A program made the position numbers and the translations under genes. The notes beneath the pieces are model-generated. The model made no database searches and had not been told where the DNA came from. It saw only the letters and a program-made list of their open reading frames with translations. DNA of 64,000 nt from Octopus sinensis (Eukaryota). The stretch spans positions 145,080,001-145,144,000 of the forward strand of contig NC_042998.1 in NCBI RefSeq assembly GCF_006345805.1, in the 5' to 3' direction. This document shows positions 14,446 to 17,235 of this stretch, in pieces. How positions within the stretch are numbered: position 1 is the stretch's first letter; each line of letters opens with the position of its first letter.

Positions 14446-15218
14446 ATATATATGTGTGTGTGTATATGTTTGTGTCATCTTGACATCGTGTGATAGTTGT
14501 AAATGTGTGTCTCTGTCTTGTTTGGAAATATGTAAAGATAGAGAAAACCTGCCTCAGTAAACTATCTGATCAAAAACACAAGCATAGAAAAGGGAATGTT
14601 GAAGAAGATGATGATATGTGTGTAGACCTAGGAAGATGTGGGACAAAGTGTTGAGAGAGGATGACAAGGGATCAAGACTTTTAGAAGTTTACTGTTCTTA
14701 AGAAGACATGTCAAGCTAAGTAAAATCGGGGTTCTTCTTGCATACAGGTATGTCTCCTACATCCCTCTTCAGCTGAGTGATCCTAATCTTGTGGGCTTGT
14801 GAGTGCTGGTGCCATGTAAAAAGCACCCATACTAGTGCTGTGTAAAAACACCTGTGCCAGTGCCACATAAAAGCACCCATACCAGTGCTACTTAGAAGCA
14901 CCCTGTACACTCTGTGAAGTGGTTGGCATCCAGCTGTAGAAACTATACCAAAATAGACATGGAACCTGGGCAGCTTGTCAGATTGCCAGCTCCTGTCAAA
15001 CCATCCAACACATGGAAAATGGACATTGAATTAAGTGATTTGATAAGAGACCAGGCACCTGACTGAATGTAAGTAATGGGGTCAATTGTTTGACTAACCT
15101 TACAAACATGGTCTGACCCTCCAGCATGGCCACTGTTCACTGATGATGATGTTACTATTTTTGTTGTTTTTTTAAATAGTTTCTGTGTTTTAGGTTTTAG
15201 TATGTTAGTAGTATATGT

Positions 15219-15524
15219 TATGTCTGGGGAGAGTCATTTTCTTTTTGTGCCTTATAATGTAACACACTCACTGGTAAAATTTCCACTTATTTCTTATTTT
15301 TATTTTCCTAAAATTTTCGTTGCGTCTTGCAACTATTGAAAAGGTTGCAAGACGCAACGAAAATTTTAGGAAAATAAAAATAAGAAATAAGTGGAAATTT
15401 TACCAGTGTCTGTGTGTTACATTATAAGGCACAAAAAGAAAATGACTCTCCTCAGACACAACAGAATATGCTTCAACACATGAACTCATATAAAGAATCT
15501 TGCAAACCAAATCCAAAAATGAAA
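15219..15524. mobile_element. Fold-back insertion (~110-bp near-perfect arms) with 12-bp flanking direct repeat and a hammerhead-like motif
   Basis: Arms 15221-15333 / 15344-15458; direct repeat agtagtatatgt at 15207-15218 and 15525-15536. Confidence 0.8.
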
Positions 15525-17235
15525 AGTAGTATATGTATTATTGATTAAACCTCTTTTACACTCACCAGTGTCGAGAGTAACAGTAAAATAAAGAAATTAA
15601 AATAATTATAAAAAACAAAACAAAAATGATGTTCAAATCCTGTCTTACTTTTCTTTGTTTCTCTCTTGAAATGTACCTGGGAGATAAAAGAGTGAGTAGG
15701 TAATACGAATAATGCAAAAATAAAATAACTTTATTAACTGAAATAAAATCTTGGGTTTTATTTTATTCTGTAGAATAAAACTTGAAATATTCAGCTTGTT
15801 ATGTTGATGATGGTTGAGGTGGCGATGATATATATATATGACAGGTTAAAAACTGTAACTGTTGGCAGCTAGAATTGTAAACTACTCAAAACACTTTTTG
15901 ATACCTTGTGGCAGTGGTGAGGTGTTTATTGACAGTTGGTGTGTGTGGTGGTGAGATAGTGTAATAAATAGTTTTTAATGTGGGTGTGTATTTGTGTGTG
16001 TTGGTGTCTGTCAGTGTGTATTTGTGTGAGTGTATGTCTGTGTGAGCATGTGTATTTGTTTGTGTGTGAGCATGTGTATTTATGTTTCTGTGTGTATGTA
16101 TGTGTATTCTGTGCATTGACAATCTATGTCAGACAGATCAAAATCTCATTTATTAAGGAGGCCTCACATGTTCCTTGTTTTATGGCCTAAAACTAGGCCA
16201 TAAAAACTTTCTTAAGCACTACTTTCAGATGTCTTCAGTCACAATTCATTGACATATAGATCGTGGCATCCACTGTTAAAAAAAAAAAGAGAGAAAAAAG
16301 AAAAGAAAATCAAATTTCAGTACTTAATTGCTGGAAGGGTGAAAAGGTAGGATTTGAACTCAGAACTCCTAGGGCCATAACTAAATATCACAAATAACAA
16401 GTATGCTCTTGGGGAACAAGATTAAGAATAATATATTTTTATTTTATCTTTCACCTGAAGAGTTCATGATAATCACACTTTTCATTTATAACTATCACCA
16501 AATAACTAAGATAAGGCAGGTTCTACTTCCATTGTTTTTGTTTTTTTCCTCTTGTTAATCTGACAAACAAGTGATATTAGATTACATTTTAAATGGATGA
16601 CGATGCTTTAATCACTTGCTATGTATTTTTCCTTCAATTATAAAGCATGGCTGTGTGGTTAAAAAGCTTGCTTTGTGATTACAAGGTTTCAGGTTCAGGT
16701 AAATGAAGGTTTCTGTAAGAATGCTAAGTCATATTTGCTTTGTGAGTTTACATGCACAAGGATGAATTATGGTGTTGTTGGCGGCGTTAGATGCAGTAAG
16801 AGCTGGTATCAGCGGTGATGAATTTCATTGTCCTAATGCGCAGAAAGTGAGCATTACCTTTCTGGAGGTAAACGCAATCAGAGAAAAACTAATCCTATAA
16901 GGAAATTGCTGGGCTCCATTGTGATAGGTAGAAACTCCAAGCAATGTAAAATATGGCCAGGACTGTGATTACCAGCATGAATGTGAAACTTTAAAAAGTA
17001 GTTAACCATTTAATGGTTTGCATAAATTTATACAGAAAAAGTAAGCATTATACTGTCCAGCATAAATAAAAGTCAACTTCATTATATTTTTTTGTGGAAA
17101 AATCTATTCTGACATTAAATGCATCAACTTCCAGCACAAATGTTTACATTTCTATGTCATTTTCCCCCAAAAAAATTTTAAAAAAAATTCTGGAAACAAT
17201 ATATATGTATATGTATGTATGTGTGTGTGTGTGTA

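What the first reader, a model, noticed from the sequence alone, without database searches (positions are those of the whole stretch)
15207..15536. Young fold-back insertion with 12-bp TSD carrying a U3-A8 hammerhead variant
Seen: ~110-bp near-perfect hairpin arms and flanking agtagtatatgt repeats. At the apex/right arm: CUA-UUGAAAA-G-GUUGC-aagac-GCAAC-GAAA-AU-UU-UAG (15333-15369). This is the same architecture as the 10.6-kb motif (extra G, GUYGC/GCRAC stem II, UU site) but with U3-A8 and an intact G12. Two independent 3-8 covariations support a real conserved fold. Inverted partial copies are typical of Penelope insertions.
Basis: partly seen in the sequence, partly recalled or inferred. Interest (0 to 1): 0.72.

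Follow-up and report, generated by a model that had tools for sequence, protein, structure and literature searches.

The report
Two-armed stub of Penelope retrotransposon
This 330-base hairpin is one of thousands of short, head-to-head leftovers from the front end of a Penelope-type jumping gene; it carries an already described small hammerhead-ribozyme variant that is predicted to be folded shut at this site, so it is ordinary, though its sister copies hint at how the element likely copies itself.

Summary
Observation confirmed: 118/120-nt inverted arms, a 12-bp target-site duplication and a minimal type I hammerhead with U3-A8. It is not a MITE. Walking out from the right arm in the genome leads upstream to a pseudo-LTR, a GIY-YIG endonuclease and a reverse transcriptase; the 61-nt 'tail' continues in frame into the ORF start. 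It is a Penelope-like element (PLE) with a Neptune/Nematis-type linker and at least 2,185 arms. U3-A8, 3-bp-stem-I, UU-site hammerheads in PLEs are published (PMC4209133). The 10.6-kb motif belongs to a related family with G3-C8 and mostly intact G12. At this locus the hairpin is predicted to mask the ribozyme. Family junctions add mechanism: 37 of 38 two-armed insertions pair one tailed with one tail-less arm, 5' ends pile up about 10 nt before stem I with an excess G (likely the RNA cap), and none pile up at the cleavage site. This scan reported the same patterns on other DNA. Cleavage is untested.

The parts
15207..15218 (.). left copy of 12-bp target-site duplication (last 3 nt overlap the left arm)
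   Evidence: family TSDs are 7-14 bp, mode 11-12, in 35 non-microsatellite cases
15216..15333 (-). inverted, tail-less arm: reverse complement of 15344-15463; starts at the inner fixed end, lacks the 5' core strand of the hammerhead
15332..15524 (+). forward arm: last part of the pLTR/5' leader plus first 83 nt of the PLE ORF; joined to the left arm through a 2-nt overlap, 9 nt short of the family's sharp 5' edge
15333..15369 (+). minimal type I hammerhead motif: stem I 3 bp, U3 (15336)-A8 (15341), extra G, stem II 5 bp, GAAA, palindromic AAUU, predicted cut between 15366 and 15367
   Evidence: numbering matched to PMC4209133 Fig. S3
15442..15524 (+). first 27 codons of the element's ORF (two premature stops in this copy)
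   Evidence: frame open and conserved in three families; continues in frame into the ORF in L306, L308, L309
15464..15524 (+). 'tail': segment between the two fixed 3' ends of the family
   Evidence: 45 of 96 arms end at the outer site, 43 at the inner, 8 elsewhere
15525..15536 (.). right copy of the target-site duplication
10440..10693 (.). separate insertion of a related family (G3-C8 hammerhead); tailed arm on the minus strand 10440-10640, short inverted arm to about 10693

Best explanation
The insert is a short two-armed copy of the pLTR/ORF-start region of an abundant endonuclease-positive Penelope-like retroelement, likely made when the element's enzyme nicked both strands of an AT-rich target 12 bp apart and primed two cDNAs on its uncleaved RNA. 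Shown: family membership, linkage to RT and GIY-YIG, two fixed 3' ends about 55 nt apart inside the ORF start, one tailed plus one tail-less arm per insertion, variable TSDs. Inferred: the two ends are the two internal RT start sites; both cDNAs run toward the RNA's 5' end about 10 nt before the hammerhead and are joined head-to-head through 1-3 nt overlaps. The hammerhead is a real, selected motif of the source element, likely active only as a dimer or with the element's protein; in this copy it is predicted to be masked by the hairpin, and the copy is a dead passenger.
For: Upstream walk: 29 of 30 loci found with a mid-pLTR probe and 18 of 30 found with an ORF-end probe carry the hammerhead/tail downstream on the same strand. 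ORF has RT-type motifs, GIY-YIG above the Pfam cut-off (E 1.5e-6) and a C-x4-C-x2-C linker; 31 longer homologues, two with weak RVT_1 matches below cut-off. L091 shows inverted tail-less pLTR, ORF, pLTR and tail, the same layout at full size. In 17 of 30 loci found with an ORF 5' probe the tail lies directly before the ORF; in L306, L308, L309 it reads in frame. Ends and pairing: (37 of 38, p 1e-10 against random pairing). The same outer 3' end appears in 4 of 4 public DNA runs from 3 organism labels. Hammerhead: stems I and II and the 3-8 pair all covary across three families whose pLTR ends align (family 1 vs 2 score 83, shuffled max 58; 1 vs 3 score 64, max 31). Near-identical architectures are in PMC4209133 Fig. 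S3: S. mansoni(4) U3-A8 in a Cercyon PLE, C. gigas PLE. Two internal RT starts defining the tail, AT-rich cleavage of both strands and a protein-assisted, dispensable hammerhead were shown in vitro for the anole PLE (PMC11167929).
Against: No empty-site allele was seen, so the TSD rests on sequence and family pattern. No intact ORF was found; the longest open stretch is 428 aa. Hammerhead helices are weak: in 3 forward-arm RNAs stem II probability 0.008-0.44, stem I at most 0.04; the predicted dimer extends the palindrome to 8 bp and swallows A13, A14, U17 and U1.1, an inactive register. The extra base is G where the published consensus has H (one listed case, Nasonia, has G). Family 2 vs 3 alignment is not above shuffles (27 vs max 35) and no PLE ORF was found near family 3 (0 tblastn hits in 59 loci). 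Family 2 has C at position 9. The tail (about 55-60 nt) is longer than the usual 30-40. PMC3846280 prefers self-priming on an antisense template for head-to-head junctions.
Confidence: 0.88

Rival explanations
1. A fold-back DNA transposon (MITE) with terminal inverted repeats whose apex resembles a hammerhead by chance.
For: Near-perfect long inverted repeat and a direct repeat at the ends; no Rfam hammerhead among listed rows.
Against: Arms are not terminal, vary in length between copies and are often single (53 of 96 arms had no partner detected); TSDs vary from 7 to 14 bp; the sequence is the leader and first codons of an RT/GIY-YIG ORF.
Confidence: 0.01
2. Same PLE origin, but the hairpin arises by self-priming or template switching of a single cDNA (or on an antisense template), not by two primed cDNAs.
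For: Proposed for rotifer PLEs (PMC3846280); junctions show short overlaps and small fold-backs; the 5' edge is complementary to a 7-nt stretch inside the element, used in 1 of 30 loci (L298).
Against: Strict tailed/tail-less pairing (37 of 38) and both arm classes occurring alone with TSDs fit two priming events at two fixed sites; the two arms stop at independent positions.
Confidence: 0.25
3. The hammerhead-shaped motif is conserved as a structure but does not cleave in this family; it serves as a protein-binding or translation-control element in the 5' leader.
For: No excess of arm ends at the cut site (4 of 91 at risk, background rate); U at position 17, 3-bp stem I, competing dimer register; anole hammerhead mutants insert normally.
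Against: Watson-Crick 3-8 pairing, GAAA and UH are kept in three families while stems change, which is what catalysis requires; U3-A8 is reported active in vitro in other hammerheads (PMC3088659 passage).
Confidence: 0.3
4. The hairpin at this locus is functional for the host (small-RNA precursor or editing substrate near the gene downstream).
For: Very stable predicted hairpin; coding exons of a host gene start about 6.5 kb downstream.
Against: Hundreds of such hairpins exist as by-products; arms have drifted apart; flanks were not covered in two other organisms' runs. Rfam miRNA hits are far below gathering scores.
Confidence: 0.05

Closest known systems
Endonuclease-positive Penelope-like elements, Neptune/Nematis type (PMC8557442, passages; PMC3846280, passages)
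   Same: RT followed by C-terminal GIY-YIG; CX2-5CxxC linker; pLTR; inverted 5'-truncated copy; tail on one end only; pLTR plus tail cover the first codons of the ORF; TSD near 9-12 bp; Asn-rich stretch in the ORF
   Different: Tail about 55-60 nt rather than 30-40; CA-rich pLTR of roughly 600-700 nt; most copies are about 200-nt stubs; clade not fixed by a tree
Minimal hammerheads of metazoan PLEs, e.g. S. mansoni(4) in Cercyon and C. gigas PLE (PMC4209133, text parts 1-2 of 4 and supplement parts 1-2 of 3)
   Same: Type I, U3-A8, extra base between 9 and 10.1, G10.1-C11.1, palindromic 15.2-16.2, 3-bp stem I, U17
   Different: Extra base is G; palindrome can extend to 8 bp; related family has G3-C8, absent from the 56 motifs of Fig. 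S3
PAc (Poseidon of Anolis carolinensis; PMC11167929, text parts 1-2 of 4)
   Same: Two internal end points in the ORF start that bound the tail; AT-rich targets; uncleaved RNA as template
   Different: PAc hammerhead overlaps the start codon, here it lies about 70 nt before it; PAc belongs to the Penelope/Poseidon clade, described as lacking the Cys linker; end points here at about +23 to +27 and +83
Non-LTR retrozymes (bioRxiv 10.64898/2026.07.22.740005, part 1 of 5)
   Same: Type I hammerhead, PLE-related, non-coding copy
   Different: No tandem monomer array; this is a truncated piece of the coding element itself

Membership tests
EN+ Penelope-like element | single ORF with RT and C-terminal GIY-YIG | tested here: met
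   all copies seen are broken, RT called from motifs and weak RVT_1 matches in homologues
EN+ Penelope-like element | pLTR repeated before and after the ORF | tested here: met
   same hammerhead/tail after the ORF and before it
EN+ Penelope-like element | inverted 5' copy and tail at one end only | tested here: met
   tail longer than usual
EN+ Penelope-like element | short variable TSD at AT-rich sites | tested here: met
   7-14 bp in 35 non-microsatellite cases among 96 arms; empty site not seen
Neptune/Nematis clades | CX2-5CxxC linker before GIY-YIG | tested here: met
   C-x4-C-x2-C in L087 and similar in homologues; definition from PMC8557442
Neptune/Nematis clades | placement in an RT phylogeny with named references | not tested
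   no named reference PLE sequences were at hand (one search hits are unnamed)
Minimal type I hammerhead of PLEs | core boxes with Watson-Crick 3-8 pair, GAAA, UH | tested here: met
Minimal type I hammerhead of PLEs | extra base 9/10.1, G10.1-C11.1, palindromic 15.2-16.2 | tested here: met
   sequence against PMC4209133; extra base G is outside the >80% consensus H
Minimal type I hammerhead of PLEs | compensatory changes among related motifs | tested here: met
   three families, stems I, II and 3-8 pair; n = 3, read by eye; MAFFT alignment was misaligned and not used
Minimal type I hammerhead of PLEs | self-cleavage (as dimer or with protein) | not testable with these tools
   only folding predictions; no footprint at the cut site in genomic copies
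MITE / TIR transposon | terminal inverted repeats, fixed ends on both sides, fixed TSD length | tested here: not met
Non-LTR retrozyme | tandem monomers each with a hammerhead | tested here: not met
   single motif at this locus; tandem pieces in only a few loci (L009/L010, L030, L044/L045)

The most novel reading that the evidence does not exclude
The thousands of stubs are a genomic read-out of the Penelope insertion reaction: the element's capped RNA starts about 10 nt before the hammerhead, a dimeric RT-endonuclease always primes one strand at the outer start site and the other at the inner one, both cDNAs can run to the cap and copy it as an extra base, and uncleaved RNA is the template. 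The hammerhead, sitting about 44 nt from the cap, would then act as a decapping off-switch and not as a processing step, and tolerates U3-A8, C3-G8 and G3-C8 cores in one genome.
Probability: 0.45. Interest if true: 0.55.

Novelty: new member of a known kind. Interest (0 to 1): 0.3.

Why it matters
The locus itself is an ordinary dead retroelement stub. The family matters modestly: how Penelope-like elements make inverted repeats and tails is still open, and these junctions give exact, testable coordinates (RNA start, two RT start sites, strict arm pairing) plus three natural 3-8 core pairs for a side-by-side cleavage test. It also warns that such hairpins can be mis-annotated as MITEs or miRNA precursors.

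Tried and rejected
Rfam scan gave no hammerhead among listed rows. Peak of arm ends at the hammerhead cut site, as a footprint of in vivo cleavage: not found. Splice-acceptor or spliced-leader origin of the 5' edge: no shared upstream sequence in 30 loci and the apparent donor in L153 was the inverted arm; not excluded for the native CAG. Empty-site allele: none among the joints shown, 139 joints not shown; two runs carry an insertion junction, two gave no cover of the unique flanks. No RNA holder listed for the locus. RNA-seq of another organism: 514 and 527 family reads, similar on both strands, about 78% running into unrelated sequence, no start or end pile-up; says nothing on this locus. 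First 5'-end histogram used a faulty reference and was replaced. DNA alignment had a wrong family 2 range and was dropped. PDB sequence search of the ORF: nothing significant. ESM Atlas on homologue P0007: RT / GIY-YIG / HTH_animal clusters, no clade name. ORF link for the 10.6-kb family: none in 59 loci. Lunse et al. 2016/17 on dimeric PLE hammerhead variants could not be read; it may already report G3-C8 or test U3-A8. One of two supplement files of PMC4209133 was not searchable. Searches for print on cap-derived ends (one unrelated paper) and on 3-8 mutants (none) are narrow.

Full report
Observation. The window holds two inverted arms, 15216-15333 and 15344-15463, that differ by 3 substitutions and one 2-nt indel, and a 12-bp direct repeat at 15207-15218 and 15525-15536. 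The insert folds at -196.6 kcal/mol, z -26. None of 141,035 non-simple random 12-mers recurs at that spacing. A minimal-hammerhead descriptor with a free Watson-Crick 3-8 pair finds only 15333-15369 in the window when G12 is required, and also 10651-10693 when A12 is allowed; shuffled windows give 0.04 hits. The right arm is followed by 61 nt with no partner, so the repeats are not terminal.

The family. The right arm plus tail has 2,340 first-look candidates in the 2.7-Gb genome, the 40 scored at 94-96%; one 32-mer has 2,185 exact matches, control 0. The only homologue with a species name comes from Octopus vulgaris. Walking upstream gave a CA-rich pseudo-LTR (29 of 30 loci carry the hammerhead/tail downstream), a GIY-YIG domain behind a C-x4-C-x2-C linker, and RT motifs; 18 of 30 loci found with an ORF-end probe have the hammerhead/tail 1.0-1.3 kb downstream. 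Locus L091 has an inverted tail-less pLTR, a broken ORF, a pLTR and the tail. The tail is the start of the ORF: the frame is open and similar in three families, lies directly before the ORF in 17 of 30 loci and reads in frame in L306, L308 and L309. This is an endonuclease-positive Penelope-like element; the linker is the feature given for Neptune and Nematis (PMC8557442, passages). No tree was built.

Anatomy of copies. I took the first 100 exact 32-mer hits on contig C1, a sample blind to both ends; 4 were dropped for identical context, leaving 96 arms. 3' ends: 45 at the outer site (window 15524), 43 at an inner site about 55 nt earlier, 8 elsewhere. Where both arms were classed, 37 of 38 distinct insertions pair a tailed with a tail-less arm (39 of 40 rows, two insertions seen from both sides; 3 further rows had an unclassed arm; 53 arms had no partner detected). 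TSDs are 7-14 bp, mode 11-12 (35 cases). 5' ends: 31 of 49 arms at risk stop 6-12 nt upstream of stem I (0.09 per nt against 0.005-0.04 elsewhere), 12 at one base; 4 of 91 stop around the predicted cut site, the background rate. Where the base before that edge is not the native C, it is G in 55, A in 33, T in 12 of the first 100 of 547 matches; at a control position three bases inside, G is 26 of the first 100 of 121 (Fisher p 5e-5; the two patterns exclude different bases). In the 30 loci inspected, 16 had G, and in most the G is also offered by the target or the other arm, so it is a preferred joining base and not proven untemplated; one case is explained by an internal repeat. In the 10.6-kb family 5 of 9 loci (one a duplicate) have G before a similar edge. 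I read this as a capped RNA start; this is inference. The window's forward arm stops 9 nt short of the edge and joins the left arm through a 2-nt overlap.

The hammerhead. Within the family U3-A8 is fixed: 93 of the first 100 of 1,638 matches, 5 C3-A8, 1 U3-G8, 1 G3-A8, no C3-G8. Across families, a sister PLE with about 60% protein identity has C3-G8 at the same place, and the 10.6-kb family has G3-C8 in 25 of 28 and G12 in 19 of 28 copies; stems I and II differ in sequence and stay paired. The pLTR ends of families 1-2 and 1-3 align above 200 shuffles, 2-3 does not. U3-A8 with an extra base at 9/10.1 was described in PLEs (PMC4209133, text parts 1-2 and supplement parts 1-2), and natural U3-A8 in other hammerheads (PMC3088659, passages). 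Against activity: stem I is 3 bp, position 17 is U, predicted helices are weak in 3 forward-arm RNAs, and the predicted dimer over-extends the palindrome. In the whole insert all eight hammerhead pairs have probability 0.000, and the left arm lacks the 5' core strand, so this locus is not expected to cleave.

Mechanism. In vitro, the anole PLE cuts both strands of AT-rich DNA, starts reverse transcription at two internal sites that bound the tail, uses uncleaved RNA, and its hammerhead needs the protein (PMC11167929, parts 1-2). Applied here (inferred): staggered nicks 12 bp apart each prime a cDNA, one at each start site; both copy toward the RNA's 5' end about 200 nt away and are joined head-to-head. 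Priming at the downstream pLTR/ORF junction gives the long copies; 18 of 96 arms extend past the edge, 10 of them beyond 38 nt. The rival is self-priming on an antisense template (PMC3846280, passages).

Age and state. About 2% from the family majority would be some 4-6 million years on the scale JC 0.09 = 25 million years quoted in PMC13282606 (passages); this is rough. Contigs from two public runs carry one junction each; no empty site was among the joints shown. RNA-seq from another organism shows family sequence only as passengers on both strands.

Novelty. The element type, the fold-back with tail and the U3-A8 variant are known. The pairing rule, the sharp 5' edge with excess G and the G3-C8 family were not found in the papers I read or in searches (listings only, except where reading is stated), but Lunse et al. 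could not be read (only a review passage, PMC6765202). Earlier notes of this scan report the two fixed ends, cap-like edges and 3-8 variants on other DNA; they are not independent support, and the decapping idea in the novel case comes from one of them (e1-8636391). PMC2377424 was seen as abstract and one section, the retrozyme preprint as part 1 of 5. Verdict: new member of a known kind, interest 0.3.

Noticed in passing
window 10440-10693; L097-L125, L146-L175: Related abundant family (3,294 first-look candidates) with a G3-C8 hammerhead core (25 of 28 copies), fixed 3' end, inverted tail-less arms and an open N-terminal frame; no G3-C8 among the 56 motifs of PMC4209133 Fig. S3. Coding partner not found.
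   Followed up: partly
L126-L143 (family 2, about 60% protein identity): Hammerhead with canonical C3-G8 but C at position 9 and a 2-bp non-palindromic stem III in 13 of 16 copies.
   Followed up: no
L091 and L092, ORF between the N-terminus and RT: Asn/Thr-rich low-complexity stretch inside the ORF, like the N-rich inserts described in rotifer Penelope ORFs (PMC3846280).
   Followed up: no
window 21963-52588 (+): Exons of a gene that looks like serine hydroxymethyltransferase (name recalled, no family search); the insert lies about 6.5 kb upstream of the first coding exon seen.
   Followed up: no
window about 55570-57317 (+): Long open frame of a LINE-type reverse transcriptase (RTE-like by recall).
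   Followed up: no
window about 10708 onward: Sequence that truncates the 10.6-kb element resembles the end of a Tc1/mariner element (recalled, untested).
   Followed up: no
L007 about 200-950: Piece of another Penelope-type ORF followed by a tRNA-like segment; matches the tRNA-headed PLE that earlier notes of this scan describe.
   Followed up: no
L095 about 8030-8070 and L165 3' flank: Members of family 1 and family 3 lie next to each other's ends, suggesting shared targets or nested insertion.
   Followed up: no
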